64,000 bases of DNA. Origin: Legionellales bacterium (lineage in GTDB: Bacteria; Pseudomonadota; Gammaproteobacteria; M30B25). The notes beneath the pieces are model-generated. The model was not told the DNA's origin. It did no database searches and saw nothing but the letters and a program-made list of their open reading frames with translations. Made by a program: the position numbers and the translations under genes. The stretch spans positions 4,351 through 68,350 of the forward strand of contig JBDOIW010000036.1 of NCBI GenBank assembly GCA_047404175.1, in the 5' to 3' direction. Positions 3,181-17,799 of this stretch are shown here, in pieces. Each line of letters opens with the position of its first letter. Positions within the stretch are counted from its first letter, which is position 1.

Positions 3181-4295
3181 TGGAGAATAGAACGGTTGCA
3201 GAAATTGATTTAAATGCTTTGAGACATAACTTTATGCAAATGAAGCAAAAAGTTGGTGATACGAAAGTGATGAGTATGGTGAAAGCTGATGCTTATGGAC
3301 ATGGCTTACTGCCTGTTGTCTCTGCACTAAAAAACTTAACCGATGCTTTTGGGGTTCATTCGTTTGAAACAGCTATGACCATTCGAGCTCATCATCCATC
3401 TGTACACATCATCTTGTTGTCTGGGGTGTTGGATCTTAGTGCTGCAAAAGCAGCACAATCACATCATTTTGATTTGGTGTTACATAATTTCGCTCAAGTA
3501 CGTATGCTTGAGGATTTGCCAAGTCATACACCTGTTAGGGTTTGGGTGAAGATTAATACAGGCATGCACCGTCTTGGGTTTCCTGTTGAACAGGTATCAC
3601 GAGTCTATGAACAGCTTCAGCTTTTAGAACAAGTGAAGCAACCTTATTATTGGATGACACATTTTTCTGAATCAAGTAATATTGCAAGTCAGGAAACAAA
3701 TAAACAACTTGCTCGCTTTACTGCTGCAGTTGGGTGCTATCCTGGGGAAAAGTCTGCGGCCAATTCAGCTGCTATTTTAGCATGGCCTAATTCCTACTAT
3801 GAGTGGGTTAGGCCTGGAAAAATGCTTTATGGAGGCTCTCCATTAGATCACCAATCAGCTCAAGAACAACAGCTTTTACCGGTAATGACCTTAAAATCAA
3901 GAGTTATTGCATTTCAGCACGTTAAAAAAGGCGATTGTCTGGGATACGATCGCACTTGGATGTGTGAGCGAGACTCTGATATTGCAATTATATCCATCGG
4001 TTATGGTGATGGTTATCCAAGAAGTGCCGCATTTGGGACGCCTGTTCTTATTCAGGGGAAACGATATCCAGTTGTTGGACGTGTCTGTATGGATTTAATC
4101 CATGTTGATATTACGGGGTCAGATGTCATTGCTTTAGGTGATGAGGTGATTTTATGGGGCAAAGGCCTACCTGTTGACGAAGTAGCACGTTATGCAGGAA
4201 CTGTATCTTATGAACTATGTTGTCATGTCAGCGCTAGAGTGCGCAGAGACTATATTAATTGCAAACAAGAGGAGGTGATTTGTGCCGAATCGTGA
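3180..4295 (+). CDS. alr: Alanine racemase
   Basis: VKADAYGHG PLP lysine motif, GMHRLG, GYGDGYPR, GRVCMD; ATG overlaps dnaB stop (TGATG). Confidence 0.97.
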   Translation: MENRTVAEIDLNALRHNFMQMKQKVGDTKVMSMVKADAYGHGLLPVVSALKNLTDAFGVHSFETAMTIRAHHPSVHIILLSGVLDLSAAKAAQSHHFDLVLHNFAQVRMLEDLPSHTPVRVWVKINTGMHRLGFPVEQVSRVYEQLQLLEQVKQPYYWMTHFSESSNIASQETNKQLARFTAAVGCYPGEKSAANSAAILAWPNSYYEWVRPGKMLYGGSPLDHQSAQEQQLLPVMTLKSRVIAFQHVKKGDCLGYDRTWMCERDSDIAIISIGYGDGYPRSAAFGTPVLIQGKRYPVVGRVCMDLIHVDITGSDVIALGDEVILWGKGLPVDEVARYAGTVSYELCCHVSARVRRDYINCKQEEVICAES

Positions 4296-5574
4296 TAAAA
4301 AGACTTTATACCTAGGATGGATGATTTGTTTACTGGGAGCCTTCTTTTATTGCTACGAATATCTATTGCGAATAGAGCCTGTCACAATGATTGCTGAGCT
4401 CGAGGATTATTATCATCTTTCTGACACTGGTCTTGGTTTTTTAACTGCTTTTTACTATTATGCTTATACCCCAATGCAGCTTTTTGTGGGTGCGATTATT
4501 GATTATTATGGTCCGCGTCTTATTCTTACCATTGCGGTTGCTTGCTGTGCTTTAGGAAGCTTTTTATTTGGAAGTGCAGAAGTGGTGAGTATTGCCGCAG
4601 TGGGTCGTTTTATGATTGGCTTTGGTAGTGCTTTTGCTTTTGTTGGAGTGCTTAAACTGGCTGCAACATGGCTTCCAGTCAGATTTTTTGCCTTGTTTAC
4701 GGGATTAACAACAGGTCTTGGAATGGTGGGTGCGATGGCAGGTAATATGGCCATGGTTCAGATGATTCATAACATTGGTTGGCAGGAAACGATTCATTAT
4801 GGCACGGTTTTAGGTCTTATCTTAGTGCCCATTATTTGGTTTGTGATTCGTGATCACCATAGCTGGACTATAGGTGGGGAGTCACATCGGGATTTTGAGA
4901 GTCTTACTTCTGTCATTCAGGGTGTTAAATCAATTATGCTTAACCGACAAATGTGGATGAGTGGTATGATTGGCATGATCATGTTTTTTTCATTATCAAT
5001 TTTTGCTGAGGCTTGGGGGCCGCGCTTTTTGAGTTTGTTATACCCTGGCTCTAGCACGGATGCGATTACCTCCGCAAATGTTATGGTTTTTGCTGGTTGG
5101 CTAGTAGGGGCGCCTTTTGCAGGTTGGTTTTCTGATGCGATACAATCTCGGCGTTTACCTCTTATTTTGGGTAGCTTAACAACCTTTTTCTTATCTTCTT
5201 TTATTCTGTTTTACTCAGGTATTAGTATTGAGTTAATGCGCTTCTTATTGTTCTTATTTGGTTTTTGTTCAGCTGTTCAGATCAATTGCTTTGTTTTGGG
5301 GCGTGAAAACTGTCCAGACCACATGTCAGCAACTGCTGTTGCTTTTATCAATATGTGTGTGATGCTTAGTGGCATGGTATTTCAGCCTTTAGTGGGCGTT
5401 GTTTCTGACTATAGCCAGAGGCTAAGGTTGGGTATGACTAGTGTGGGCAGTAGTTTAAAAGAGCTGCCAGATTACCAGTACGCTCTAGCACTTATTCCTA
5501 TTGGATTACTTATTGCTTTTGTTTTAGCGCTTTGCATTGAAGATACTTATGGTCAGGGTGGTATTGAGGAATGA
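4282..5574 (+). CDS. MFS transporter, Pht-like
   Basis: About 12 TM helices; GAIIDYYGPR MFS loop motif; N-terminal FFYCYEYLLRI resembles Legionellales Pht transporters. Confidence 0.85.
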   Translation: MPNRDKKTLYLGWMICLLGAFFYCYEYLLRIEPVTMIAELEDYYHLSDTGLGFLTAFYYYAYTPMQLFVGAIIDYYGPRLILTIAVACCALGSFLFGSAEVVSIAAVGRFMIGFGSAFAFVGVLKLAATWLPVRFFALFTGLTTGLGMVGAMAGNMAMVQMIHNIGWQETIHYGTVLGLILVPIIWFVIRDHHSWTIGGESHRDFESLTSVIQGVKSIMLNRQMWMSGMIGMIMFFSLSIFAEAWGPRFLSLLYPGSSTDAITSANVMVFAGWLVGAPFAGWFSDAIQSRRLPLILGSLTTFFLSSFILFYSGISIELMRFLLFLFGFCSAVQINCFVLGRENCPDHMSATAVAFINMCVMLSGMVFQPLVGVVSDYSQRLRLGMTSVGSSLKELPDYQYALALIPIGLLIAFVLALCIEDTYGQGGIEE

Positions 5575-5816
5575 GCATCAGTCAAGCAGACTTAAAATGG
5601 CGATGCCGTCGCGGTATGTTAGAGCTTGATGAAATGCTCAATTCTTTCGTTGATCATCACTACGAGCAGCTTTCTTCTGATGATCAACTTGTGTTTATAC
5701 AGCTCTTGGAAGAAAGTGATCAAACATTGTGGCGATGGTTTTTGGCCATTGAGAAAAGTCCAGAAAAATACCATGACTTGATTGCACATGTGCTTAAAGC
5801 TTATCAAGCTCAGTAG
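5571..5816 (+). CDS. sdhE: Succinate dehydrogenase assembly factor SdhE (YgfY)
   Basis: LKWRCRRGMLELD signature. Confidence 0.95.
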   Translation: MSISQADLKWRCRRGMLELDEMLNSFVDHHYEQLSSDDQLVFIQLLEESDQTLWRWFLAIEKSPEKYHDLIAHVLKAYQAQ

Positions 5817-5965
5817 CTTAAGATCTTAGCATTCCCATGCATTATATTCCTTCAAATATAGTGTTAGTTCACGGTGAATCATGCTTTATATTGCATGCTT
5901 AATTTATCTGAAATATTTTTAAAAGAATGGTCTATACTTCTTGGTTGGGATTTAAAGAGTGTAAA

Positions 5966-7186
5966 ATGAAATTGTTTAAACCATTAAAATTAGCTCTTGC
6001 TTCTCTTGCCGCTGTGGGTATGATCGCAGCTTGTGGTGGTGGTTCAAGTAGTGGTAGTAATTCATCTTCAACCGTCCAGGCAACCCCCAAAACTTGTCCA
6101 GCAGGTGTTGAGTCTGCATTTCGAAACTTTCTCACTGATGAAGGGGCGGCGAACATTGCAAGTGGTGCAACTTCAGTGATATTTGAGGCAAGATACCAGG
6201 ATGATAACAATGTCCCAGACGATTATACAACGCTTGCTATTTTCTTTGAAGAGGGTGATCTCGATGGCACAGAGTTTGAGCAAATGCCACTTACCATTGT
6301 GCACAATGATCAAAACTATAGGTTGTCATTTGGTGTCGATACAGATGGTTATCCATGGTTAGCCTATCAGAACATAACAGATGTTGAATATGGTTACTAT
6401 GATGAACAAGATGTTGGATATTCAAATTGGATCTACTTACATGAAGGTCTTATCTATACGGGTGAATTTTGGTCAGACGATCTGGTTGATATGTTTGGAG
6501 ATTATCATGAAAATGAACATGGTGAAACACAAATACAGACCATAAATGATAACGGTGATATGTCATATGACAACTATGATGAAAATTTGCGTAATCAAAT
6601 TATAAATAATGAAAGATATATTGTGGTTCAGAATGAAAAAGTAAATCGGTTTTTCATGCTAGCATATGAGAAGCTAAAAGATGATAGTGGTCTTATGGAT
6701 GTTTACGATATTGATGCCCAAGATCTCGAAAGTCGTTTAGAAATATTACTAACCAGTATAGAACTTTATGAACAATACGCAAATGGCACAGTGGACTTAA
6801 GTGGTGTCGATATGACAAATACATGCTTAAAGCTGGTGATGGATAATGTGTTGCTAGACACAGAAGTTTTGGTCGAATATGACTCTACAACTGAAGAAAT
6901 GATATGGCAAGACCATCCTATCGCACACGATGTTATGAAGATTGATTTAAGTGGCAATCGTTGGTTTGATAAAAATTCATTACGTATCTTAGTGGACTCA
7001 TTATCCCAAGTGATTATTGATGAAGCAACTGGTAATATGTACTATTCTAAAGGAAACAGTTTAAAAGAGGTAGATCTTAAGGGAACATCTGTCACACAAC
7101 AAGATATTGATGATTTAATCAAAGAGGATCCCGATCGTTATTGGCACTTTATGTTACATAAAGTCAAAATCCTCATAAATGAATGA
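5966..7186 (+). CDS. Array lipoprotein 1 (acidic, C-terminal LRR-like module)
   Basis: Signal peptide MKLFKPLKLALASLAAVGMIAA|CGGG, Ser linker, TCP motif; C-terminal DLSG...CLKLVMDNV...IDLSGN; start set at 5966 by homology to paralogs. Confidence 0.85.
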   Translation: MKLFKPLKLALASLAAVGMIAACGGGSSSGSNSSSTVQATPKTCPAGVESAFRNFLTDEGAANIASGATSVIFEARYQDDNNVPDDYTTLAIFFEEGDLDGTEFEQMPLTIVHNDQNYRLSFGVDTDGYPWLAYQNITDVEYGYYDEQDVGYSNWIYLHEGLIYTGEFWSDDLVDMFGDYHENEHGETQIQTINDNGDMSYDNYDENLRNQIINNERYIVVQNEKVNRFFMLAYEKLKDDSGLMDVYDIDAQDLESRLEILLTSIELYEQYANGTVDLSGVDMTNTCLKLVMDNVLLDTEVLVEYDSTTEEMIWQDHPIAHDVMKIDLSGNRWFDKNSLRILVDSLSQVIIDEATGNMYYSKGNSLKEVDLKGTSVTQQDIDDLIKEDPDRYWHFMLHKVKILINE

Positions 7187-7199
7187 TCATCTTTCAATT

Positions 7200-7227
7200 A
7201 AAAAAGCCGCTTTAGAGCGGCTTTTTT
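7200..7227. terminator. Bidirectional intrinsic terminator, array copy 1
   Basis: AAAAAAGCCGCT-TTAG-AGCGGCTTTTTT. Confidence 0.9.
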
Positions 7228-7312
7228 GTGTTCGTCTTGAAGTTCAATTATCCAGCATAAATAAATATTTCAACTATACTTAGCGGGTTAATTTAATAAA
7301 TTAGGAAAAAAG
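7228..7312 (+). promoter_or_regulatory. Repeated array promoter/5'UTR module (copies near 9044-9127, 10905-10989, 12959-13045, partial 14810-14869)
   Basis: Shared TTGAAGTTCAA palindrome (three copies), ATAAATAAA, CTATACTT (-10 TATACT) and AGGAAAAAA RBS. Confidence 0.7.
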
Positions 7313-8959
7313 ATGAATACGTTTAAACAATTAAAATTAGGTATAGTCACATTAGCAAGCATTGGTATGATCGCAGCTTGCGGTGGAGGTTCTAGTAGTG
7401 GTTCTAGTGGTTCCAGCGTAAGTCCAATCAACAATGTGACAGGTACAACAACTTGCCCCAATGGACTTGACTTAGTTTTTGGGCAGCATTTTGCGTCTAA
7501 AGAAGATAGAATGCGCTTAGCAACTGGTGCAGATGTTATTAAGGATGCTCTATCTACTGCTGAAGTTATGCAAGACGCTGATCCCTTAGTTGTAGTTTTA
7601 ACAGGAGATTTAGCTAGAGCTATTGATCTTGGGGATGGACAAGTGGCTAATTTATCCATGGTTGTTAAGGTAAGTGAGGATAACGGTAGTGAAGTGATTA
7701 TGTTTGCTTACGTAGATCAGGAAGAAAAGGTTGTTTCTTCTATACCTTTAATAATGCCCTACATCACTGATTATATTACTAAGTCACTGGATACAGATGC
7801 ATATAAAAGAGCTTCAGAATTGTTAGTAACTCAAGCTAAAGACATAAATCCAGTAGATGTATTTACATATCTGGAGGAACATTCTGCTGAAAAAGCAAAA
7901 GATTTTCTTTTGCAGAGAATTTACGCTGAGATATCTGCATCTGGTAAAACTATACCTACAGTTTACGTTGTAATTGATGATGAAAATGACAAGGAGTTTT
8001 CAAATATTGACTTGGGTAATATGAAATGGAACGGTACTAATGAAGAAAAAATGCAAGCAGAAAAATATAGTAATCAAATACATCAACATTATGCTCACCT
8101 TCTTATAGATTACAATAAGTATTTAGAAGAATTTGTGAATTATTCTGCGAGATTGTCAGGTGTATCAGATGAGGCTACTGTTGGCGATGTTAAGGAATAT
8201 ATCTTAGGCATGCTAGAAGATTTTTTCCCTGATTTAGAGTTGGATTTGCAAAATAAGCCAGTAGAATATTGGGAATCATTTGACTGGGGGCAAATAAGTA
8301 AATCCAAAATAGACAAAGAAGCAATGTTAAAAAATTTCAAAGGATTGAAACTTGGTGATATTGTGCCAAGAAATTTAAGGTCAGATCTAAATGTTGTTAG
8401 TCAAACAACACAAAATTGGCTAGTAGCACTTGATCAATATACAGATAAGGCAGATAAAAAGTATAGCGGTTATAGTGATCTGGTAGAAAATACTCAAGTA
8501 TTATCATCTGCAGTTAGTGCTCTTAATCTGGCAGAAATATTATTAGCAGGTTTGTTTAATGGTACTATAAGCTTGAAGGGCTATGGTGTTGATGATGCTT
8601 GTATGGCTTTAATTGCTGATACAGTCGATTTCGATGTTTTTGGCAATGCAGTAACATCATTGGATCTTAGTAATAATAAGCTTGGTCCTGATGGATTGAG
8701 AGCTATTCTACAGCATTTCGATGCAAGAGATGCTAATGGTAATCGTATGCATGGTTTATCCATTAGTAGTATTAATATCTCTGGCAATGAAATGATTACA
8801 GAAGATGATGTGAACAAACTCATAGAGGAATTTTCAAGGATTCTTGGTGATGGTCTGTTCACTTCAACTATTACCATTTATCTAGATGAAACTTTGTTTG
8901 ACACGCATCAAAGGTCGCTTGAGTTAAACAAGATTATAGATGCAATGGAAATGGAATAA
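7313..8959 (+). CDS. Array lipoprotein 2
   Basis: MNTFKQLKLGIVTLASIGMIAA|CGGG lipobox; TTCP; LDLSNNKLGPDGLRAIL LRR-like unit. Confidence 0.88.
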   Translation: MNTFKQLKLGIVTLASIGMIAACGGGSSSGSSGSSVSPINNVTGTTTCPNGLDLVFGQHFASKEDRMRLATGADVIKDALSTAEVMQDADPLVVVLTGDLARAIDLGDGQVANLSMVVKVSEDNGSEVIMFAYVDQEEKVVSSIPLIMPYITDYITKSLDTDAYKRASELLVTQAKDINPVDVFTYLEEHSAEKAKDFLLQRIYAEISASGKTIPTVYVVIDDENDKEFSNIDLGNMKWNGTNEEKMQAEKYSNQIHQHYAHLLIDYNKYLEEFVNYSARLSGVSDEATVGDVKEYILGMLEDFFPDLELDLQNKPVEYWESFDWGQISKSKIDKEAMLKNFKGLKLGDIVPRNLRSDLNVVSQTTQNWLVALDQYTDKADKKYSGYSDLVENTQVLSSAVSALNLAEILLAGLFNGTISLKGYGVDDACMALIADTVDFDVFGNAVTSLDLSNNKLGPDGLRAILQHFDARDANGNRMHGLSISSINISGNEMITEDDVNKLIEEFSRILGDGLFTSTITIYLDETLFDTHQRSLELNKIIDAMEME

Positions 8960-9013
8960 AAAATTGGTGTTTTACCACAGTGGAGCACTGAATAATATGA
9001 TATTTATCTTCAC

Positions 9014-9043
9014 AAAAAAAAGCCGCTTCAGAGCGGCTTTTTT
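9014..9043. terminator. Intrinsic terminator, array copy 2
   Basis: A-tract-GCCGCT-TCAG-AGCGGC-T-tract. Confidence 0.9.
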
Positions 9044-9127
9044 GTGTTCGTCTTGAAGTTCAATCATCGAGTATAAATAAAAGATTCAACTATACTTAAC
9101 GCGTTAAATTAATAGCTAAGGAAAAAA

Positions 9128-10815
9128 ATGAATATATTAAAGCAATTAAAACTAGGTCTTGTGACATTAGCAAGCATTGGGATGATCGCTGCTTGTGGGG
9201 GTAGTTCAAGCAACGTCTCAAGCTCAAGTTCAGTCAATAAGGTAGTAGGAACAACAACGTGTCCCAAGGGGCTTGATTTGGTATTTGGGCAGCACTTTGC
9301 ATCTGAAGAAGATAGAATGCGTTTAGCATCTGGGGCAGAATCAGCAAGTAGTGAGGACGATCCATTTCATATATTTTTAACAGGAGATTTAGCTAAAACA
9401 GTTACTTTGACAGATAATCAAGCTAGTGAAGCTGGTGTTGCTTCTGGAACAAAAGCTAGCTTAGCTATGGCTATTTTTACAGAGAGCCTTTTTGATGAAA
9501 ATAGTGGCAGCCCAGACAGTCCTGTCATTGTATTTGGTTATGTGAGTGTTAATGATCGTGAGCTAATTGAGGTTATACCTGGATTTGTGCCCTTTAAAAC
9601 TAATAATATGGCTATGATCACTGATCCAAATGCACATGCGGAGACTTGGACAAAAATACAGGAAACAGGTAGCGAGCTAACACCAGATAATGTATTAAAA
9701 TTTTTTGAGGATAACAGTGAAAAAAAAGTAAAAGATTTTGTTATGCAGCAAATTTTTGAGCTTTTTAAGGAGACTAATGACCTTCCCTGGTATTATTTTG
9801 TAATCGATTTTGATGGATCTAGCGAAGAAGAGATGATTTCAAATATTGAGCTAGTGAATATGAAGTGGGGGGATAATGCAGAAGCAAAGGAGCGAGCAAA
9901 CAATTATAGTAAGCAATTACACGAGTATTATGGTCATCTAGTAAGCAATTACACGAGTATTATGGTCATCTTCTTATAGACTATAATAGTCATTTAGAAA
10001 GTTTCGTTGACTATTCTTTGGGTTTAGGAGATATCCATGATGCTACTGTTGGGGATGTCCTAGTAATAATGTCAGCGTTGGTAGAACCATATTGGGTAAA
10101 TATAGACGACTCAGCATCTATAGTTGATGCTCTTCACGGTTTCGGTTTACTTAGCTCTGAAGGTTATAAAGATTATGGCTTGGAAGATTATAAAAACTTA
10201 TATGAAGAGCACGCTCCAGAAGATTTAGATTCAACGGTAGAACGTAAGCTAAAAGATAATAAATATATTATGAAAAATTGGTTGCAAGCAGTTAGCCAGT
10301 ATAGAGCAGAACTTGAAGAAGCAGTTGAGCAAGGTGAGTCATTAGCAACAGGTGCAAATGAGGCTTATGGTGAGTATGTGAATAACACTCATGATATATT
10401 ATCAGCCTTACTTAATGCTATAGAGATAGCAGAAACAACAGTCAAGGGTTTGTATCACGGTTCTATCAGCTTGAGTGGACATGGTATTGATGATGCCTGT
10501 ATGGCTTTAATTGCTGATACTGTCGATTTTGATGTTTTGGGCAATGCAGTAACATCATTAGATCTTAGTAACAATAAGCTTGGTCCTGATGGATTGAGAG
10601 CTATTTTGAAGCATTTCGATGCAAGAGATGCTAATGGTAATCGTATGCATGGTTTATCCATCAGTAGTATTATTGTCTCAGGCAACGAAAGGATTACGGA
10701 TAGAGAAGTGGAAGAACTCATAAAAGAATTTCCAGACATTCTTGATGATAATCTTTTTCAAGCAAGTATCACTATTTTTTCATCTACAAGTTTGGGTGTG
10801 GGAAACGATGATTAA
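9128..10815 (+). pseudogene. Array lipoprotein 3, frameshifted by a 32-bp tandem duplication
   Basis: ORFs 9128-9979 and 10018-10815 join into one paralog of lipoprotein 2 when one copy of the 9907-9970 duplication is removed. Confidence 0.9.
9907..9970 (+). repeat. Perfect 2 x 32-bp tandem duplication
   Basis: TAGTAAGCAATTACACGAGTATTATGGTCATC twice. Confidence 0.97.
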
Positions 10816-10876
10816 GAAATAGATGCTCCTTAGTAAGAAGCTGGTCCTTAAATACTATGGGCTGACAGTGTTCTTC

Positions 10877-10904
10877 AAAAAAGCCGCTTCAGAGCGGCTT
10901 TTTT
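10877..10904. terminator. Intrinsic terminator, array copy 3
   Basis: AAAAAAGCCGCT-TCAG-AGCGGCTTTTTT. Confidence 0.9.
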
Positions 10905-10989
10905 GTGTTCTTTTTGAAGTTCAATTATCCAGCATAAATAAATATTTCAACTATACTTGTCTCGATTATTTAATAACTGAGGAAAAAAA

Positions 10990-12870
10990 ATGAATACGTT
11001 TAATCAATTAAAATTAGGTATTGTCACATTAGCAAGCATTGGTATGATAGCTGCGTGTGGTGGTGGTTCAAGTAGTGGTAGTAGTTCAGCTGCAGGAGCA
11101 AAAGCGGCTGCTCCTTCAACGTGTCCTACAAAGATTCAGTTTGCTTTAAGAGAGTTTTTAACTGATGAATCTGCGGCTAAGTTAGCCAGTGGTGCATCCA
11201 TGCAAGACATAGAAGCAACAGGGGATTTAGCTTGGGTTTTAGTTTCAGAAGAAGGTGATTTTTGGTATGACACCATTTATCTCAATGAAGATGGTACCTT
11301 ATCTAACACAGATGCAAATGGTGGAACTCAATTGACTTTAGTGATGTACGGTACTGGTCATCCAACGCAAACCGCTATCGATTCGAATTATGATAGAGGT
11401 ATTCAGGATTCTGAGTCATATTCGGAGAATCGTTCTTATATTGATTTTGTAACAACTACCTATGATATTTTTGAAGATATGAACTTCGCTTATGTTGATT
11501 TGAATAAAGGTGTGGATGAGAACAGTCATTCTGTATTATTTTTATTGAGATCAACATTATATGCAAATGCAGTGCTGGATGAAACTCTTGTTGGTTCTGA
11601 AAGAGTATTATTCCCTAATCTTCTCGACCTTACAGCAGATAATGCTCTATCCAATAATTATCAAGTCATGAGTATTAGCGATGAAAATAAACAGAAGCTT
11701 ATACTTGATTTAGCAAAGGCTGTGATTGCAAGTGAGAGCTATGATGTCACCAACTTTAGGACTTATGAGCAAAATCAGTCACAAGAAACAGGTACTGTTG
11801 ACTATTCTTATGAAGAAAAGGATGGGAGATATACTGAGGTAGAAACTTATTATAATAGCGATATGAACGTGGTCTTTGAAGACACGTATTCGGATGTTCT
11901 GAGTTATGATTATATAGATGCGACCTACACTAGTCGTGAATATGGTGATGACGAATCTCTTTTACAGGTTTTCTCATATGAGATGTATGATGACAATACG
12001 CCTGACAACTACGAGTATAGTAGCGAATCGTTATATTATTGGGGGGATCGAGGGGCTAATGATAATCAGTTAGCTAGGCAAGTGATTCATAAGCATCCAA
12101 ATGGAAAAGCTCATTCAACTGATGGCAGTGATTTGTATGAATCATTTACCTATAATCAGGAGGGTACATTGATTCGTCATGTTGTAGACACAGAAGGATA
12201 CCGGAAAAAATTTATGTACGATGAAGATGAAAATATTACTATCATGTCACAACATCAGTTTGATTTAGAGACACATGAAATGATTACAACTACTTATTAT
12301 TCACCAGATTCTGATGGAAATCTTCAGGAATTAACGGATCAGGATATAATCGAGTTATTAGTGGCTCAGAATGAACAACTCTATGATTCATTGGGTGATG
12401 CCTGGTATGGGATGATGTCTGATATTCACGCATCGCGCGTGGATGAGGTATTCAACTACAAAGAAGGCTTAGCTGGTTACCTCAATCAATTTTCACAGCT
12501 TAATGCTGGGGCAATTATGATGTATGATGCATTTAAATCTGGAACACTACCACTCAACAAGACAGATCTTAGTCAAGCCTGCTTAGTAAAAGTGATGAAA
12601 GATGTTCCCTTGGACGGAGATGACAACGAGGGGATTGCACCAGTGGAGATTATTAACCTAAGCAACAACAAAACAGTAACTGTTGAAGCACTGAAAGCGA
12701 TGTTAGAAGAATTAGAAACGAATGGTAAAGGAGAGAGCATTATTTCAATTGATGTTAGAAATACTAGCATTACAGCAGATCAGGCTAAGGATCTTATGGA
12801 TACAGAGTCAATGCTAAGTATCTATGAAGTTTTAGGTATTACACTGATTCATGATGGAATGGAGAACTAA
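10990..12870 (+). CDS. Array lipoprotein 4 (Tyr/Asp-rich passenger)
   Basis: Same lipoprotein signal; STCP; C-terminal ACLVKVMKDV...INLSNN...IDVRNTSIT. Confidence 0.88.
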   Translation: MNTFNQLKLGIVTLASIGMIAACGGGSSSGSSSAAGAKAAAPSTCPTKIQFALREFLTDESAAKLASGASMQDIEATGDLAWVLVSEEGDFWYDTIYLNEDGTLSNTDANGGTQLTLVMYGTGHPTQTAIDSNYDRGIQDSESYSENRSYIDFVTTTYDIFEDMNFAYVDLNKGVDENSHSVLFLLRSTLYANAVLDETLVGSERVLFPNLLDLTADNALSNNYQVMSISDENKQKLILDLAKAVIASESYDVTNFRTYEQNQSQETGTVDYSYEEKDGRYTEVETYYNSDMNVVFEDTYSDVLSYDYIDATYTSREYGDDESLLQVFSYEMYDDNTPDNYEYSSESLYYWGDRGANDNQLARQVIHKHPNGKAHSTDGSDLYESFTYNQEGTLIRHVVDTEGYRKKFMYDEDENITIMSQHQFDLETHEMITTTYYSPDSDGNLQELTDQDIIELLVAQNEQLYDSLGDAWYGMMSDIHASRVDEVFNYKEGLAGYLNQFSQLNAGAIMMYDAFKSGTLPLNKTDLSQACLVKVMKDVPLDGDDNEGIAPVEIINLSNNKTVTVEALKAMLEELETNGKGESIISIDVRNTSITADQAKDLMDTESMLSIYEVLGITLIHDGMEN

Positions 12871-12932
12871 AACTGAATATGGTGTTTAATATTGAAATGT
12901 AATAGGGCGCTAATGAAGGCAGTCCAAAAATG

Positions 12933-12958
12933 AAAAAGCCGCTTTAGAGCGGCTTTTT
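12933..12958. terminator. Intrinsic terminator, array copy 4
   Basis: AAAAAGCCGCT-TTAG-AGCGGCTTTTT. Confidence 0.9.
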
Positions 12959-13045
12959 CTTGTCTGTTAAAAAGTGATAATAATCCAGAATAAATAAATA
13001 TTACAACTATACTTAACGAGTTAAATTAATAGCTTTGGAGAAAAG

Positions 13046-14395
13046 ATGAATGCATTAAAACAATTGAAACTAGGACTTGTGACATTAGCAAGCACTGGTA
13101 TAATCGCAGCTTGTGGTGGTTCAAGTGGTGGCTCTAGCTCTGGGTCAGTAAGTGTCCAAAATACGTCAACTTGCCCGGTAGGGTTAGGTTTAGTCTTAAA
13201 GAAGCAACTTACAAAAGAGGCTGAACAACGCCTAGCTGCTGGCGCATCAACAACGTCTAATGGTGTGGATGTCTTAAAACGGATTAGCAAACCGTATAAA
13301 TTTGACGAAAATCATGCGTTGTATCAAGAGACCATTGGAAAGGATTCTAAGAAGCTGTATAGAGCAGTGGCTGCTGTAGAGATTGATACTTATGATGATT
13401 CCGGTAATGCTATGAAAACCAATGCTATGGGCTTTGTTTATGTCGATAGTGAAGGCAAAGTCAGTGAAAACATACCATTATTTGTTCCTTTTAGCAATTA
13501 TGATGTGGATAAAGAAGGTGAAGTGACAGAAGCAGTGGTACCCGTATTTAGGTGGAATGCTTACAATAGCAATACTGATTCAATCATGAATGGCGATCAA
13601 GTCAGTACAATACAAAAATATTACGGAGATCTTTTTATCGACTGGATTGTCTATAAGAAAAAGTATGAGTCCATATGGAAGTTATTTGAAGAAGAGGATC
13701 TTGATGATTCTATTGCTGATACTAGAGTAGATTCACTAATTCCTTCAGATTTTCGTGCTGACGTTGTTAAGGTTAGAGCTGTTGCTGAAAAGTGGACGAT
13801 CGCTGGTAACTATCTGTTGGGTGAGATAGGTTTTGAATTGAAAGATTCCGCAGATGAAACACTAGAAGGAACACTTCTCGAAGATTCCTTTGGTGACTTT
13901 GCTGAAGCAGTTGATTTTAGTGATGAAATAGATGAAATATTAAGCATGGTTGACATATTTGAATCATTGGTTACAGGATTACAAGATGGTGTTCTTGATT
14001 TAAGGGATCTAGGGGTCAATGATGCATGTTTGAAGCTAGTGATTGATAATGTGGACTTAGACGGGGATGTTGGTGCAGCTATCAGTAAGTTGGATTTGAG
14101 AGATAATGCAATTACTATTTCAGGATTGCGAAACGTTTTACGTCATCTTGATATGAGAGACAAAGATGGCAATCGAATTCATGGATTAGGTATCGGTAGT
14201 ATCGACATATCAGGTAATAATATCAATAATACAGAGCTTGACGACGCTAAAAAGGAATTTGAGGGTCTATTGGAGGGAGTGATTTTTACGCATATCAAAA
14301 TTATCATGAATATGACGGTGAAAGAAGCGTCAGAAATAATTGATGAATATGAAGATGAAGATGAAGATGAAGAAGATGAAGATGATGAAGAGTAA
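13046..14395 (+). CDS. Array lipoprotein 5 (poly-acidic tail)
   Basis: Lipobox IIAA|CGG; STCP; DACLKLVIDNV, LDLRDNAITISGLR; ends EDEDEDEEDEDDEE. Confidence 0.88.
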   Translation: MNALKQLKLGLVTLASTGIIAACGGSSGGSSSGSVSVQNTSTCPVGLGLVLKKQLTKEAEQRLAAGASTTSNGVDVLKRISKPYKFDENHALYQETIGKDSKKLYRAVAAVEIDTYDDSGNAMKTNAMGFVYVDSEGKVSENIPLFVPFSNYDVDKEGEVTEAVVPVFRWNAYNSNTDSIMNGDQVSTIQKYYGDLFIDWIVYKKKYESIWKLFEEEDLDDSIADTRVDSLIPSDFRADVVKVRAVAEKWTIAGNYLLGEIGFELKDSADETLEGTLLEDSFGDFAEAVDFSDEIDEILSMVDIFESLVTGLQDGVLDLRDLGVNDACLKLVIDNVDLDGDVGAAISKLDLRDNAITISGLRNVLRHLDMRDKDGNRIHGLGIGSIDISGNNINNTELDDAKKEFEGLLEGVIFTHIKIIMNMTVKEASEIIDEYEDEDEDEEDEDDEE

Positions 14396-14423
14396 CCCAT
14401 GAATTTGGAGTAAATAATACAAG

Positions 14424-14450
14424 AAAAAGCCGCTTTATGCGGCTTTTTTT
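14424..14450. terminator. Intrinsic terminator, array copy 5
   Basis: AAAAAGCCGC-TTTAT-GCGGCTTTTTTT. Confidence 0.88.
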
Positions 14451-14451
14451 G

Positions 14452-14624
14452 TTCGTCATCAATGTGGCGCAAGGTTGGACCTATATAGAGTTGGCGTGGT
14501 CGGCCTAATTGATAGTCGCTATTACGCATTTCAAGCCAATGGGCAACCCAACCAGTTGTGCGAGCCAAAGCAAAAATGGTAGTAAAAAAGCGTTTGGGAA
14601 TGCCAAGTGCGCTTAAAGTAAGGC
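14452..14624 (-). pseudogene. gltA: Remnant of citrate synthase 3' end (about 57 codons, stop changed to GAA)
   Basis: Translates LTLSALGIPKRFFTTIFALARTTGWVAHWLEMRNSDYQLGRPRQLYIGPTLRHIDD; 11 mismatches in 173 bp versus gltA by manual alignment. Confidence 0.93.
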
Positions 14625-14869
14625 TAGTGTGAAAATAAGCCTTAGAATAAATCTTATATAGAAAATAGAGATCTAAATGTCATGGCTATGATTGACGGTA
14701 AACATAGTAATAAAAGGAGTGTTGGGCCTAACTATAACGGTTGCCTATGTGCAAGAGAAAAATTGAAAAAATTAGTGTTTGATGAATTTATATTAAAGCT
14801 GTATTTGTCCATAATTAATATAAATGTCATCTATACTTAACTCATTAAATTAATAGATTAGGAAAAAAG

Positions 14870-16465
14870 ATGAATACGTTTAAACAATTAAAATTAGGTC
14901 TTGTGACATTAGCAAGCATTGGGATGATCGCAGCTTGTGGTGGTGGTTCAGGTAGTGTTGGCACTGCTTCAGGAGCAAAAGCAGTGGCTAAAACCTGCCC
15001 TTCGGGTATTGATCTTGTTTTAAGAGATTATGTTAGCGAAGAAGGCGCTAAGAGGATTGCTAGTGGAGCCGAGAATCTTAGATATGAGTTATTGGAGCAC
15101 ATAGGTACCAATCTGTTTATCTCTGATCTTGATATGGTAACCATAGACCAAGGAGCGACGAAATTTTTACTCTTGGATTGGATGAAAGTTAGTTCTGGTC
15201 AACATACTATTGAAAATCATCAGCGGCGAGCAGCAATTGTGATTGTGTATCTGGTATTGTTGACTGAAATTGTTGCTTTAAATGATTTAAATGAGGATGC
15301 ATTGCATATTGTAACAAGGCTTAATACGAAAGAAGATGGTTCTGAGATTCAAGAATACATGTTGACCGATACCGATTTTGAGGATTATCTCCAGTATACT
15401 CCTAATCCTGAGTATTACGATGGATCGTTTTCCCAACGTGGGAACATAAAAGAACTCTCAGAGTCAATATTTAAAAACATTGTCATCTTTACAGAGGATA
15501 AACCTGTAGCATCAGAATCGGATGAACAGCAAATGATACGTTATCAATTTATTGCAGAAAAGCAGCATATTTTAGGAGAGATGATAATGCATATGCTCAG
15601 TGTTAAAGTTGCACAAGAATCTGACAGAGTGTTAGCTGTATCATTAGCTCAAATGAATGATCTTTCGAAGAAAAATATGGAATTGGATTCTCGTATTGAT
15701 GATTTAAAATCTGAGAAAGCTAATTTACAGTCTCAGAAAGATGATTTACAGTCTCAGAATGATGATTTACAGTCTCAGAATGATGATTTACAGTCTCAGA
15801 AAGCTGATTTAACATCTGAGAAAGCTGATTTACAGTTTAAGTTCGATGTCTCTAAAGGAAAAGTTGAGGCTCTAGATAAGCAAATTGTGGGTCTAAATGC
15901 GCAAATTGCAGGCAAAGATAAAGAAATAGCTGGTTTTATAGCAAAGGTAAATAAGCTATCTAGTGATAAGGAAGCATTAACAGCTGAAAAAGAGCGTTTG
16001 GAAGCTAAGTATGATACAGATATTGCAGGTCTAGAAAGCAAACTAGATGATATGCAAAACAAGACTGAAGCTCTTACAAAACAATTAAGTGAGGCTTTGG
16101 CTCAAAAATCTAAGTTTGAAAGGATGTTGTCTCAAGGTGTGGTTGATTTGAGTGGAGTTGCGATGAGTAATGCTTGTTTAACTTTAGTCATGGATAACAT
16201 TGTACTTGATGAAACAAAAGATGTGGGTGATGCTGACTATGATTCAAAAAAAGAAGTACGTAAGTTGGATTTTAGTGGCAATAAATGGTTTGACAAAGAC
16301 TCACTCAGAATTGTGTTTGATTCACTCTTGACTCAAGAAAGAACTTTTCTAAAGGAAATAAATTTAGAGGGTACTTCTGTTACTCTGGATGAGATTACAA
16401 AATTGCTCGATGAAGATGACTATTCTGAATTGCATGATATGGACGTTAAGCATGATGATTTATAA
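14870..16465 (+). CDS. Array lipoprotein 6 (coiled-coil passenger)
   Basis: Same signal peptide; KTCP; heptad repeats; NACLTLVMDNI, LDFSGNKWFDKDSLR. Confidence 0.88.
   Translation: MNTFKQLKLGLVTLASIGMIAACGGGSGSVGTASGAKAVAKTCPSGIDLVLRDYVSEEGAKRIASGAENLRYELLEHIGTNLFISDLDMVTIDQGATKFLLLDWMKVSSGQHTIENHQRRAAIVIVYLVLLTEIVALNDLNEDALHIVTRLNTKEDGSEIQEYMLTDTDFEDYLQYTPNPEYYDGSFSQRGNIKELSESIFKNIVIFTEDKPVASESDEQQMIRYQFIAEKQHILGEMIMHMLSVKVAQESDRVLAVSLAQMNDLSKKNMELDSRIDDLKSEKANLQSQKDDLQSQNDDLQSQNDDLQSQKADLTSEKADLQFKFDVSKGKVEALDKQIVGLNAQIAGKDKEIAGFIAKVNKLSSDKEALTAEKERLEAKYDTDIAGLESKLDDMQNKTEALTKQLSEALAQKSKFERMLSQGVVDLSGVAMSNACLTLVMDNIVLDETKDVGDADYDSKKEVRKLDFSGNKWFDKDSLRIVFDSLLTQERTFLKEINLEGTSVTLDEITKLLDEDDYSELHDMDVKHDDL
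15701..15835 (+). repeat. About 6.5 x 21-bp tandem repeat encoding heptads (DLQSQND-like)
   Basis: GATTTACAGTCTCAGAATGAT and variants in tandem. Confidence 0.92.
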
Positions 16466-16498
16466 AAAGTAACCCATGAATTTGGAGTAAATAATATG

Positions 16499-16529
16499 AA
16501 AAAAAGCCGCTCTGGAGCGGCTTTTTTTT
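16499..16529. terminator. Bidirectional terminator between lipoprotein 6 and gltA
   Basis: A-tract-GCCGCTC-TG-GAGCGGC-T-tract directly after the gltA stop. Confidence 0.92.
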
Positions 16530-16530
16530 G

Positions 16531-17799
16531 TTAGTCATCAATGTGGCGCAAGGTTGGGCCGGTATAGAGTTGGCGTGGTCGGCCTAATTGATAGTCGCTA
16601 TTACGCATTTCAAGCCAATGGGCAACCCAGCCTGTTGTGCGAGCCAAAGCAAACAGGGTAGTAAAAAAGCGTTTGGGAATCCCAAGTGCGCTTAAGGTAA
16701 TGCCTGAGTAAAAATCAACGTTTGGATATAGATTGCGAGATTTGAAGTAATCGTCTTCTAAGGCAATTTTTTCCAAGGCCATGGCAAGTTCAAACAAAGG
16801 TGAGTCTCCTTTATCAGCCACACTCAGTACCTCATGACACGTTGAGCGCATGATAGTTGCCCTTGGATCATAGCTTTTGTAAACACGGTGCCCAAAGCCC
16901 ATGAGTCTGAAGTTGTCATTGGGATCTTTAGCTTTAGCAATATAGTTTTCAATGTGATCAACAGAGCCAATGGTTTCAAGCATATCAAGGCAGGCCTCGT
17001 TAGCGCCACCATGAGCTTTGCCCCACAAGGCAGCAACACCAGCGGCAACGCAGGCGTAAGGGTCAGCACCTGTTGATCCTGCCAGGCGCACAGTCGATGT
17101 GGATGCATTTTGTTCGTGATCGGCATGTAGTATAAAGATTTTATCAAGTGCTTTGGCCAAAACATGTTCTTTTTCTGTAAGCGGTCTTCCTCGTAAAAGA
17201 GCTAGAAAGTGCTCTGCGTAATGCTCTGGTTGCAAATGATTATCATAGGGCTGTTGGTGCTGATGGCAAAAAATAGCTGCAATGAGACACGGAATCTTGG
17301 CGACTAAGTCATAAGCTGCCTGCTCACGCACGGAAGATTGGCTGTAATCATTTTGGTCATGATGAAGTGACGCTAATTGCCCTATGGCTGCTATGAGGAG
17401 CGCCATGGGGTGTCCGTCAGTATTACCCTCTAGTAAGCGATGAATCGAAGCGTCAAGTGTCATTTGAGATAAAATGGTCTCCCTAAATACTTTGCTCGAT
17501 TGTTCTTGAGGTAGCTCGCCTTGTATTAACAGTTGAGCAGTCTCTAAAAAATCTTTTTTTGCAGCTAATTCTTCTATAGGGTAGCCACGATGTAATAAGA
17601 TACCCTCGTTACCATCAATATATGTGATTTTAGATTCGCATGCTGCAGTGACCTTAAACCCTGGGTCGTAAACCCAGGCGTTTTGTTTAGCAATGTCTTG
17701 CATGGGAATGACATCATTGCCTAAAGTAGCTTCGATAGTGCTTAGTGGAATGGTGGTCTTGTTGTTGAGGTTAAGAGCGATAGAATCATGCTTGCTCAT
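16531..17799 (-). CDS. gltA: Citrate synthase
   Basis: HADHEQNAST, AHGGANE, GFGHRVYKSYDPRA, YPNVDFYSG. Confidence 0.99.
   Translation of the reverse strand: MSKHDSIALNLNNKTTIPLSTIEATLGNDVIPMQDIAKQNAWVYDPGFKVTAACESKITYIDGNEGILLHRGYPIEELAAKKDFLETAQLLIQGELPQEQSSKVFRETILSQMTLDASIHRLLEGNTDGHPMALLIAAIGQLASLHHDQNDYSQSSVREQAAYDLVAKIPCLIAAIFCHQHQQPYDNHLQPEHYAEHFLALLRGRPLTEKEHVLAKALDKIFILHADHEQNASTSTVRLAGSTGADPYACVAAGVAALWGKAHGGANEACLDMLETIGSVDHIENYIAKAKDPNDNFRLMGFGHRVYKSYDPRATIMRSTCHEVLSVADKGDSPLFELAMALEKIALEDDYFKSRNLYPNVDFYSGITLSALGIPKRFFTTLFALARTTGWVAHWLEMRNSDYQLGRPRQLYTGPTLRHIDD

What the first reader, a model, noticed from the sequence alone, without database searches (positions are those of the whole stretch)
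14391..16703. Diverged gltA 3'-end duplicate flanks the last cassette: the array may grow by recombination at gltA
Seen: 14391-14624 repeats 16468-16703 and brackets lipoprotein 6. The 173-bp gltA part has 11 mismatches and no indels. One removes the stop; 7 of the other 10 are at third codon positions and the amino-acid changes are T/I, L/I and I/L. Inference: the copy diverged while still a functional allele rather than decaying neutrally. Cassette 6 would then have arrived with a relative's gltA end, by Campbell-type or homology-facilitated recombination, displacing the older end. This would give polarised cassette acquisition anchored on a core gene, and the repeat could also allow excision.
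Basis: partly seen in the sequence, partly recalled or inferred. Interest (0 to 1): 0.8.

Follow-up and report, generated by a model that had tools for sequence, protein, structure and literature searches.

The report
Leftover gltA end in lipoprotein array
A 234-base copy of the end of the citrate synthase gene sits inside a strain-variable row of six surface-lipoprotein genes; it is a real scar of how the row grew, but the data do not show that it arrived from another strain.

Summary
Window 14391-14624 repeats 16468-16703 and brackets lipoprotein 6. The gltA part is 173 bp with 11 mismatches and no indel. One mismatch removes the stop, and 7 of the other 10 are at third codon positions.

New facts change the reading:
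- The remnant runs about 25-31 bp further into gltA at only about 62-64% identity, and destroys residues that are invariant in 121 of 121 relatives. The junction is therefore older than the clean 173 bp, which must have been refreshed by homologous exchange.
- The "selected allele" pattern is not significant once the live copy's own selected divergence is counted (P 0.04-0.16).
- All four older junctions carry the same bidirectional terminator plus about 12 nt resembling the gltA end.
- The array is missing between sdhE and gltA in the one same-genus genome. A closer relative has a different array with no cassette 6 and no remnant.
- The cassette holds no integrase.

Best reading: this is a scar of cassette addition at the gltA-proximal end of a locally evolving tandem lipoprotein family, kept partly similar to the live gene by gene conversion. 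Import with a foreign gltA end remains possible, at about 0.2.

The parts
5571..5816 (+). sdhE (Sdh5 flavinator), the left core flank of the array
   Evidence: Pfam PF03937, E 1e-20. In the same-genus genome G001 its homologue lies 130 nt from the gltA stop with no array in between.
5966..7186 (+). lp1, lipoprotein cassette 1 (the listed ORF starts at 5927; the lipobox start is at 5966)
   Evidence: Signal peptide with lipobox IAAC and the conserved N- and C-terminal regions of the family. Its C-terminal part is the closest paralogue of lp6 (38% over 165 aa).
7199..7241 (.). Junction module J1: bidirectional terminator hairpin plus about 12 nt resembling the gltA end. The same module recurs at 9015-9057, 10876-10918 and, degraded, at 12931-12973.
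   Evidence: the repeat finder families D7 and D9, the sequences and the terminator scan. The hairpin motif occurs 6 times per strand in the 1.4-Mb genome, and all copies lie in this array.
7313..8959 (+). lp2, lipoprotein cassette 2
   Evidence: LRR_6 hit below the Pfam threshold. 56% identical to P0123 of the related strain.
9128..10815 (+). lp3, an lp2-like cassette split into two ORFs (9128-9979 and 10018-10815) by an exact 32-nt tandem duplication at 9907-9970
   Evidence: the repeat finder family D12. With one unit left out, the frame is open for 551 aa.
10990..12870 (+). lp4, lipoprotein cassette 4
   Evidence: 67% identical to P0124 of the related strain, with near-identical termini.
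13046..14395 (+). lp5, lipoprotein cassette 5, with an acidic tail
   Evidence: Its last 421 nt (13917-14337) match the related strain's contig with 6 differences.
14391..14451 (.). Repeat copy A, non-coding part: 3' UTR shared with lp6, plus the bidirectional terminator (hairpin 14424-14448)
   Evidence: The first 29 nt are identical to 16468-16496. The hairpin loop is closer to the J1/J4 loop than to the loop of copy B.
14452..14624 (-). Repeat copy A, gltA' outer part: the last 57 codons of gltA with the stop changed to GAA
   Evidence: 173 bp, 11 mismatches, 0 indels against 16531-16703. E 3.7e-72.
14625..14655 (-). gltA' inner part: heavily decayed continuation of the remnant
   Evidence: In register, 16 of 25 identical, P 7.5e-4 from random placements. 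Divergence differs from the outer part with Fisher P 1.3e-4. Seven residues invariant in 121 of 121 relatives are changed.
14656..14799 (.). About 145 nt of unknown origin between the remnant and the lp6 promoter module (31% GC)
   Evidence: No significant similarity to other junctions (z -1.4 to 0.5) or to the rest of the genome.
14800..14869 (+). Promoter and ribosome-binding module of lp6, shared with cassettes 2-5
   Evidence: Alignment A3, the repeat finder family D1.
14870..16465 (+). lp6, lipoprotein cassette 6, with a coiled-coil middle that includes 21-nt tandem repeats at 15659-15868
   Evidence: Pieces are present at 100% identity in a run from a different study (X3). No close homologue was found among the 7 family members in the 5.8-billion-protein collection.
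16468..16530 (.). Repeat copy B, non-coding part: lp6 3' UTR plus the bidirectional terminator shared with gltA (hairpin 16499-16528)
16531..17799 (-). Live gltA (citrate synthase, 422 aa). Its last 173 bp (16531-16703) are repeat copy B.
   Evidence: Homologues carry PF00285. It lies divergent from sdhCDAB at 17948 onward.

Best explanation
The duplicate is a pseudogene scar (gltA'). It was left when a complete lipoprotein cassette was added at the gltA-proximal end of a tandem paralogue array.

The lipoprotein genes and the convergent gltA share one bidirectional terminator, and that terminator ends only about 5-8 nt from the gltA stop. Any duplication or insertion that carries a whole cassette with its terminator must therefore have its right endpoint inside gltA, and so must copy the gltA end. 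This happened at least twice:
- An early event left about 12 nt. That short vestige was then spread to junctions J1-J4 by internal unequal crossing-over.
- A later but still old event left at least 198-205 nt at junction 5.

The outer 234 bp of that remnant (UTR, terminator and 173 bp of gltA) have since been re-homogenised by homologous exchange. The most likely route is gene conversion from the live copy 2 kb away, with a short patch from a J-type module at the terminator. The inner 25-31 nt lay outside the exchange tract and decayed.

The array itself is a lineage-specific, strain-variable family of lipoproteins with a conserved signal-peptide and N-terminal region, a fast-evolving middle and a C-terminal leucine-rich-repeat-like domain. 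It evolves by duplication, unequal crossing-over and conversion at conserved junction modules.

Shown: the anatomy, the two divergence levels, the vestiges, the variation between strains, and the absence of a recombinase gene inside the cassette.
Inferred: the order of events, and gene conversion as the refreshing mechanism.
For: - Two divergence levels within one remnant. The outer part has 11 of 173 mismatches. The next 25 nt have 9 of 25 (Fisher P 1.3e-4). The in-register extension has P 7.5e-4. The inner part changes L, P, N, D, Y, S and G residues that are invariant in 121 of 121 relatives.
- Polarisation with P0001 (94% identical GltA) and P0002 (76%) shows that the stop loss, T to I and I to L are derived in the remnant. 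At 7 of the 11 sites the remnant has A/T where the live copy has G/C. Both fit relaxed selection in a 36%-GC array.
- The substitution pattern is compatible with a neutral remnant plus a selected live copy (P 0.04-0.16).
- The same hairpin terminator stands at all six junctions and nowhere else in the genome.
- After the T-run, J1 and J2 read GTTCGTC and then match 3 of the next 5 positions, like copy A's gltA end.
- Copy A shares the stop-loss C and the loop type with the J modules but shares its UTR with copy B. That is a mosaic, as expected from conversion.
- The 5' modules of the cassettes are 78-92% identical in the first 26 codons (lp2-lp6), while the gene bodies have diverged (24-36% amino-acid identity to lp6).
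- The lipoprotein family occurs only in this array within the genome.
- The array is absent between sdhE and gltA in the same-genus genome G001.
- Only 7 family members were found in the 5.8-billion-protein collection. Four are from this contig and three are from one 6699-nt contig of a related strain.
- That related strain has a different cassette order.
- The cassette holds no ORF other than lp6.
Against: - lp5 and lp6 are not recent duplicates. They are 26% identical overall, and only the N-terminal 67-69 aa align in tblastn. A plain tandem duplication therefore needs either great age plus fast divergence, or later replacement of one copy.
- The roughly 145 nt upstream of the lp6 promoter module (14656-14799) show no similarity to the terminator or UTR of any other junction. 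A duplication of an internal cassette would predict such similarity.
- The A-B differences have a low non-synonymous share (4 of 11). All three amino-acid changes are variants that occur in other citrate synthases (L in 8, I in 5 and L in 4 of 121 relatives). This fits allelic divergence slightly better (likelihood ratio up to 7.1).
- The live copy carries a derived L, made by two changes in one codon, and has the odd terminator loop.
- Gene conversion is inferred and was not observed.
- Only one complete array is available for comparison.
Confidence: 0.5

Rival explanations
1. Cassette 6 came from a related strain together with that strain's gltA 3' end. It entered by Campbell-type or homology-facilitated illegitimate recombination anchored in gltA. 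Copy B is the donor's end and copy A is the displaced native end. To fit the two divergence levels, the incoming piece must already have carried the old decayed inner remnant. For example, it could have been a unit excised from a donor with the same structure and re-inserted by a crossover within the 234-bp repeat.
For: - The non-synonymous share is low (4 of 11) and the amino-acid changes are conservative and occur naturally.
- A-B divergence (6.4%) is close to the divergence between this strain and the related strain over the last 647 nt of gltA (46 differences, 7.1%).
- Copy B has the derived L and a terminator loop unlike all five others.
- The region upstream of cassette 6 is unlike the other junctions.
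- lp6 has no close paralogue or homologue.
- The related strain has a different terminal cassette next to gltA.
- Published precedent for anchored displacement arrays: PMC5361080, section 13 read. For circle formation and re-integration in lipoprotein paralogue clusters: PMC2568036, section 19 read.
Against: - A single import predicts uniform divergence along the remnant. Observed is 6.4% against about 36%.
- The statistical support for an allele under selection is weak (P 0.04-0.16).
- The stop-loss base of copy A is the same base as in the J modules. That suggests exchange within the array and not an independent hit.
- No donor allele is known.
- No recombinase gene is present.
- No empty site or circle was seen in the contigs of the probable source run.
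- The cassette order in the relative is not that of a polarised stack.
Confidence: 0.2
2. An old scar, as in the best explanation, followed by ordinary homologous allelic replacement of the live gltA 3' region from a related strain. This would be unconnected with cassette gain. The A-B differences would then be mostly allelic differences between two live ends, plus a little decay.
For: - It explains both the selection-like pattern and the two divergence levels.
- The live copy's L at FFTT[L]F is derived relative to P0001, P0002 and 110 of 121 relatives.
- GC3 of the live tail is 0.47, against 0.39 for the gltA body and 0.39 for copy A.
Against: - It needs one more event than the best explanation.
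- GC3 of 0.47 lies within the range of 57-codon windows along gltA (0.28-0.47).
- GltA differs from P0001 in the last 57 residues at only 1 position, so there is no visible recombination break.
Confidence: 0.15
3. An assembly artefact or strain chimera: two gltA alleles from co-occurring strains were joined into one contig.
For: The genome is a draft of 87 contigs. Related strains exist in the same study (X2). None of the eight listed X1 contig pieces bridges the repeat copies in the probable source run (128 further pieces across all four runs were not shown).
Against: - Copy A is not a live allele. It has no stop, and after about 200 nt it continues into sequence that is not gltA and then into the lp6 promoter.
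- All 34 of 34 source-run contigs fit the window at 99% or more. None runs on into unlike sequence and there is no alternative joint.
- The two copies differ at 17 substitutions and 2 indels, so short reads can tell them apart.
Confidence: 0.03
4. A site-specific integrative element that uses the gltA 3' end as its attachment site and supplies a replacement end, as prophage e14 does at icd.
For: Direct repeats of a core gene's 3' end flank the insert, with a pseudogene copy at the far side. This is the same geometry as icd and icdC around e14 (PMC13626634, passages read).
Against: - The 1.85 kb between the repeats holds only the lp6 gene and its upstream region. There is no integrase or excisionase ORF of 60 aa or more.
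- The insert is a paralogue of its neighbours.
- The repeat also covers the lipoprotein 3' UTR.
Confidence: 0.02

Closest known systems
Staphylococcus aureus lpl (lipoprotein-like) tandem paralogue cluster in the nuSa-alpha island (Tsuru and Kobayashi 2008, PMC2568036; abstract and section 19 read)
   Same: - Same-orientation tandem lipoprotein paralogues thought to act in host interaction.
- Conserved segments serve as sites of homologous recombination.
- The unit that is conserved spans the gene's 3' end, the intergenic region and the next gene's 5' end.
- Order and content differ between strains. This is explained by unequal crossing-over, apparent conversion, circle formation with re-integration, and exchange between strains.
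   Different: - Here the conserved recombination substrate is the junction itself (terminator, promoter and signal peptide) plus a C-terminal domain, not a central region of the ORF.
- The array abuts a core gene whose end has been copied into the junctions.
- The protein family is unrelated (no Pfam lipoprotein family was hit).
- Only two arrays are known so far.
Orphan immunity-gene arrays of Vibrio cholerae T6SS clusters, and the Rhs/CDI orphan strings, built by successive displacement through homology-facilitated illegitimate recombination (Kirchberger et al. 2017, PMC5361080; abstract and section 13 read)
   Same: - Growth of an array without an integrase, next to a conserved anchor gene.
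- Displaced 3' remnants of the anchor are left inside the array.
   Different: - In those arrays the cassettes match those of other strains and are unrelated to each other. Here the cassettes are paralogues.
- In those arrays the order records the history. Here the related strain's order does not fit a stack.
- The remnant here shows two divergence levels.
e14 prophage at icd with the icdC pseudogene in E. coli K-12 (passages of PMC13626634 read; the primary papers by Hill and co-workers are cited there and were not read)
   Same: A diverged duplicate of the C-terminal end of a TCA-cycle gene lies at the far side of an insert. The live gene uses the proximal copy. Recombination between the copies removes the insert and makes a chimeric but functional end.
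   Different: e14 is a 15-kb prophage with its own site-specific recombination system. Here the insert is a single lipoprotein gene with no recombinase.

Membership tests
Tandem paralogue lipoprotein cluster evolving by recombination at conserved segments (S. aureus lpl type) | Several same-orientation paralogous lipoprotein genes in tandem | tested here: met
   Six cassettes lie on the + strand from 5966 to 16465. All have a lipobox (IAAC) and shared N- and C-terminal regions.
Tandem paralogue lipoprotein cluster evolving by recombination at conserved segments (S. aureus lpl type) | Conserved DNA segments between variable parts that can serve as recombination sites | tested here: met
   The terminator modules of J1-J3 are 93-100% identical to the D7 reference copy. 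The first 26 codons are 78-92% identical among lp2-lp6. The gene bodies have diverged (24-36% amino-acid identity to lp6).
Tandem paralogue lipoprotein cluster evolving by recombination at conserved segments (S. aureus lpl type) | Rearranged order and content between related strains | tested here: met
   The related strain's 6699-nt contig reads lp5-like end, novel gene, lp4-like, lp2-like, gltA. This window reads lp1 to lp6, then gltA. Only one other strain was available.
Anchored displacement array (HFIR type, T6SS immunity / Rhs orphans) | A conserved anchor gene next to the array, with displaced remnants of its end inside the array | tested here: met
   gltA lies at 16531-17799. The remnant is at 14452 to about 14655. 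Vestiges of about 12 nt sit in J1-J4.
Anchored displacement array (HFIR type, T6SS immunity / Rhs orphans) | Cassettes closer to those of other strains than to each other (horizontal origin) | tested here: inconclusive
   lp4, lp2 and lp5 have counterparts in the related strain (67%, 56%, and 6 differences in 421 nt). lp6 has none among the 7 family members found.
Anchored displacement array (HFIR type, T6SS immunity / Rhs orphans) | Polarised order: the newest cassette lies next to the anchor and the older order is shared between strains | tested here: not met
   The order in the relative (5-like, novel, 4-like, 2-like, gltA) is not a shared older stack with new additions at the gltA end.
Anchored displacement array (HFIR type, T6SS immunity / Rhs orphans) | The remnant diverged from the live end as an allele, with uniform divergence and a signature of purifying selection | tested here: inconclusive
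   The non-synonymous share is 4 of 11, which does not reject a neutral remnant (P 0.04-0.16). Divergence is not uniform: 6.4% against about 36%.
Site-specific integrative element with att repeats in a gene's 3' end (e14/icd type) | An integrase or recombinase gene within or beside the insert | tested here: not met
   Only lp6 and short antisense ORFs lie between the repeats. No such ORF lies between sdhE and gltA.
Site-specific integrative element with att repeats in a gene's 3' end (e14/icd type) | Direct repeats of the target gene's end flanking the insert | tested here: met
Integron | intI, attI and attC sites at cassette borders | tested here: not met
   No integrase ORF was found. The borders are intrinsic terminators and promoters, and each cassette has its own promoter module. 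No Rfam family reached its threshold.
Leucine-rich-repeat (LRR_6 / RNI-like) proteins, for the cassette C-terminal domain | A match to the LRR profile above the curated threshold, or a confident LRR fold | tested here: inconclusive
   - LRR_6 scores 19.9 and 22.8 bits, against a cut-off of 23.4.
- A PDB GALA protein matches at E 3.5e-5 over 23 residues.
- Protein-atlas feature score is 0.93 to LRR_6 clusters.
- The AlphaFold model has mean pLDDT 45.8. Only residues about 420-510 reach 66-82, and they form alternating strand-helix units.

The most novel reading that the evidence does not exclude
Cassette 6 is a unit that moves between strains without any recombinase. It consists of the 234-bp repeat (lipoprotein UTR, terminator and gltA end), the old decayed gltA piece and the lp6 gene. 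It would loop out by recombination between its two repeat copies and re-enter other genomes by one crossover in the conserved gltA end. A core metabolic gene would then serve as the docking site for a stack of variable surface lipoproteins. The two copies would differ as live alleles of donor and recipient.
Probability: 0.15. Interest if true: 0.55.

Novelty: new member of a known kind. Interest (0 to 1): 0.3.

Why it matters
The locus is a compact, well-marked example of how a hypervariable surface-protein array is built in an uncultured marine bacterium with a small genome. The genome is 1.4 Mb, and the nearest GltA proteins outside its own lineage (P0001 at 94% and P0002 at 76%) are only 54-59% identical.

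The shared terminator forces every addition at the end of the array to copy a piece of the neighbouring core gene. Those copies act as dated scars, from which the order of events and the reach of gene conversion can be read.

If more genomes of the lineage appear, the scars would allow a direct test between duplication and import as the source of new cassettes. That question is usually hard to settle for such arrays.

As it stands, the finding is a sound annotation and a useful caution. An excess of third-position differences between a pseudogene fragment and its live parent does not by itself show that the fragment diverged as a functional allele.

Tried and rejected
1. I thought by eye that 14650-14800 was a decayed copy of another junction (the 3' UTR of lp3b or lp4 plus an eroded terminator), which would have dated the junction independently. 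Local alignment with shuffles gave z from -1.4 to 0.5 against all junction UTRs. blastn-short found only the last 39 nt, the promoter and ribosome-binding site, elsewhere. I rejected the idea. Homology to the other cassettes starts only at about 14800.

2. I expected T to I in RPRQLYTG to be a damaging change that would prove decay. In fact 5 of 120 homologues have I there (5 of 121). I dropped that argument.

3. I tried to polarise the synonymous differences with the same-genus genome G001. Its codons are too diverged to be informative.

4. I looked for closer relatives with flanking DNA. The metagenome-contig scan gave 56% as the best match, and so did the genome-contig scan. Neither gave a usable relative. 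The two closer GltA proteins (P0001, P0002) and the three related lipoproteins come from Logan assemblies, for which I could obtain protein sequence only.

The planned allele phylogeny could therefore not be made.

6. The structure prediction of lp2 had low confidence (mean pLDDT 45.8), so I ran no fold search.

7. The Rfam scan found nothing above a gathering score. It returned four sub-threshold matches, all overlapping the terminator modules.

8. Runs X3 to X12 hold only small shares of the stretch. X3 and X4 were laid. They show short pieces at 99-100% identity (lp6, the lp5 5' end, the MFS gene), but no contig across either repeat copy. I draw no conclusion about the junction or about habitat from the parts they do not cover.

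I did not ask for any supplementary files of the papers I read. The figures and supplements of PMC5361080 and PMC2568036 may hold details that I did not see.

10. Genome G040 (unpublished) was among the 41 genomes counted. No claim in this report rests on it.

Full report
**Observation.** The window is G000:C36:4351-68350 of a 1.4-Mb draft genome of 87 contigs. The gene order is MFS transporter (4282-5574), sdhE (5571-5816), six same-strand lipoprotein genes lp1 to lp6 (5966-16465), then convergent gltA (16531-17799, minus strand), which is divergent from sdhCDAB.

14452-14624 matches 16531-16703 over 173 bp with 11 mismatches and no indel. One mismatch changes the stop TAA to GAA. Seven of the other ten fall at third codon positions. 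The amino-acid differences are T/I, L/I and I/L. The repeat also covers the 61/63 nt between the lipoprotein stop codon and the gltA stop: the first 29 nt are identical, followed by 6 substitutions and 2 one-base indels around the terminator hairpin. In the organism's own genome, gltA has only this one extra partial copy (E 3.7e-72).

**The remnant is longer than the clean repeat.** Beyond 14624 the two sequences stay in register, but identity drops. In 30-nt bins the identical positions are 28, 28, 30, 28, 28, 23, 16, and then 10, 10, 9, 14, which is the background level.
- The best extension is 16 of 25 identical. A score that high occurred at none of 919 other gltA offsets and at 0.075% of 20,000 random window positions. 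Its divergence differs from that of the outer 173 bp with Fisher P 1.3e-4.
- In translation, the inner part replaces L, P, N, D, Y, S and G residues that are invariant in 121 of 121 relatives. The three changes in the outer part are all variants found in other citrate synthases: L in 8, I in 5 and L in 4 of 121.
- The junction between gltA' and the lp6 upstream region is therefore much older than the 6.4% divergence of the outer copy suggests. The outer 234 bp must have been refreshed by homologous exchange.

**Is the pattern that of a selected allele?** Seven of ten differences at third positions has P = 0.02 against a uniform model, but that is the wrong null model. The live copy evolves under selection and contributes mainly synonymous changes.
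- With a neutral remnant and a live copy at omega 0.05-0.2, the expected non-synonymous share is 0.56-0.66. Observing at most 4 of 11 then has P 0.044-0.161. The likelihood ratio for "both selected" over "remnant neutral" ranges from 0.2 to 7.1, depending on the transition and AT bias assumed. The test is inconclusive.
- Two closer GltA proteins found in Logan assemblies, P0001 (94% identical) and P0002 (76%), end in FFTTIFALAR...RPRQLYTG...HIDD or HIKK. The stop loss, T to I and I to L are therefore derived in the remnant, and the L of the live gene is derived there.
- At 7 of the 11 sites the remnant has A/T where the live copy has G/C. This fits relaxed selection in an array of 36% GC, against 45% for gltA.

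**The junctions.** All six cassette ends carry the same bidirectional hairpin terminator. The motif occurs six times per strand in the genome, and every copy is in this array.
- After the T-run, J1 and J2 read GTTCGTC and then match 3 of the next 5 positions of copy A's gltA end. J3 and J4 are degraded versions. This is a vestige of about 12 nt of the gltA end, and it carries the same stop-destroying C as copy A.
- The loop of copy A is also closer to the J1/J4 type than to the copy B type, while its UTR is shared only with copy B. Copy A is therefore a mosaic, as expected from conversion among these modules.
- The terminator ends a few bases from the gltA stop. Any event that adds a whole cassette with its terminator at that end must therefore copy some of gltA. 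The vestiges follow from this geometry and need no special mechanism.
- The roughly 145 nt between the remnant and the lp6 promoter module (14656-14799) match nothing. My first impression that they were a decayed junction did not survive testing.

**The cassettes.** The six proteins share a lipoprotein signal peptide (lipobox IAAC), a short N-terminal region and a C-terminal domain. Their middles differ.
- The C-terminal domain looks like a leucine-rich repeat, but only at the level of a lead. LRR_6 scores just under the Pfam cut-off. A GALA protein in the PDB matches at E 3.5e-5 over 23 residues. The protein-atlas feature score is 0.93 to LRR_6 clusters. The otherwise poor model shows alternating strand-helix units at pLDDT 66-82.
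- lp6 has a coiled-coil middle with 21-nt repeats.
- lp3 is split by an exact 32-nt tandem duplication.
- The family occurs only in this array within the genome.

**Relatives.** The one same-genus species genome, G001, has the MFS gene, sdhE and gltA directly adjacent, with a 130-nt spacer, on a contig that ends inside gltA. It has no family member apart from one weak match elsewhere. No closer relative exists in metagenome contigs or genome contigs, where the best GltA identity is 56%.
- In the 5.8-billion-protein collection, the N-terminal signature found 7 proteins among 253 candidates. Four are from this contig and three are from one 6699-nt Logan contig.
- That contig is record 9 of run X2, which comes from the same study as the probable source run but from another sample. 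Laid on the window it reads: lp5-like 3' end (6 differences in 421 nt), a J-type junction, 1417 nt of novel sequence, lp4-like, a gene with an lp2/lp3-like body, 183 nt, and then the gltA end (46 differences in 647 nt).
- Its proteins are P0126 (novel; at most 39% identity to lp4, over 242 residues), P0124 (67% to lp4) and P0123 (56% to lp2).
- This strain therefore has no cassette 6 and no gltA remnant within 6 kb of gltA. Its lp5-like gene is followed by a J-type junction, and its cassette order is not that of a polarised stack.
- Short pieces of lp6 at 100% identity occur in a run from another study (X3). Pieces with 1-2 differences occur in X4.
- In the probable source run, 34 of 34 contigs fit at 99% or more, with no alternative joint.

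**Mechanism.** The best-supported account is a scar of cassette addition at the gltA-proximal end of a locally evolving tandem family, with its outer part kept similar to the live gene by gene conversion (confidence about 0.5).
- The main weaknesses are these. lp5 and lp6 are anciently diverged, at 26% identity. The lp6 upstream region is unlike the other junctions. The substitution pattern leans slightly toward allelic divergence.
- Ordinary allelic replacement of the live gltA end is a third option (about 0.15).
- Assembly error (0.03) and a site-specific element (0.02) are unlikely. Copy A is plainly not a live allele, and the insert holds no recombinase.

**Comparison with known systems.**
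- The architecture and dynamics match the S. aureus lpl tandem lipoprotein cluster (PMC2568036; abstract and section 19 read).
- The geometry of a displaced 3' end recalls icd and icdC around prophage e14 (PMC13626634; passages read).
- This locus is best filed as a new member of the first kind. Its added feature is that a neighbouring core gene's end is copied into the junctions.

Noticed in passing
window 9907-9970: An exact 32-nt tandem duplication splits the lp2-like gene lp3 into two ORFs (9128-9979 and 10018-10815). With one unit left out, the frame is open for 551 aa. This is either a recent inactivation or a reversible slippage switch.
   Followed up: partly
window 15659-15868: lp6 contains seven or more 21-nt (7-aa) tandem repeats (DDLQSQK-like) within a long coiled-coil segment. 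Such repeats could vary in number between strains.
   Followed up: no
window 14179-14568 (minus strand): Loss of the stop in the gltA remnant creates a 129-aa ORF. It runs through the terminator and antisense to the acidic tail of lp5. No evidence was found that it is a gene.
   Followed up: no
window 16654-16656 (gltA codon in FFTT[L]F): The live citrate synthase has L (CTG) where the remnant, P0001, P0002 and 110 of 121 relatives have I. Two base changes in one codon of the live gene produced it.
   Followed up: partly
L033 (G001:C31) 6763-7486: In the only same-genus species genome, sdhE and gltA are 130 nt apart with no lipoprotein gene between them. The contig ends inside gltA.
   Followed up: yes
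run X2, record 9 (6699 nt), laid on window 7203-17169: A related strain, about 93% identical in the gltA 3' end, carries a different array: lp5-like end, a novel 491-aa lipoprotein, lp4-like and lp2-like genes, then gltA. Orthologous lipoproteins are only 56-67% identical, while a relative's GltA (P0001, a different Logan contig, not shown to be this strain) is 94% identical. The variable middles therefore evolve very fast.
   Followed up: partly
G000:C66:10252-10503 and G001:C56:31620-31811: Weak matches of the lipoprotein family profile outside the array, at E 9.8e-6 (N-terminal part) and E 2e-6 (LRR-like part). I did not examine them.
   Followed up: no
window 14338-14397: The acidic tail of lp5 is encoded by GAAGAT-type short repeats. 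Read laying skipped this stretch as repetitive. In the related strain, the distance from lp5 position 14337 to the terminator is about 55 nt longer.
   Followed up: no
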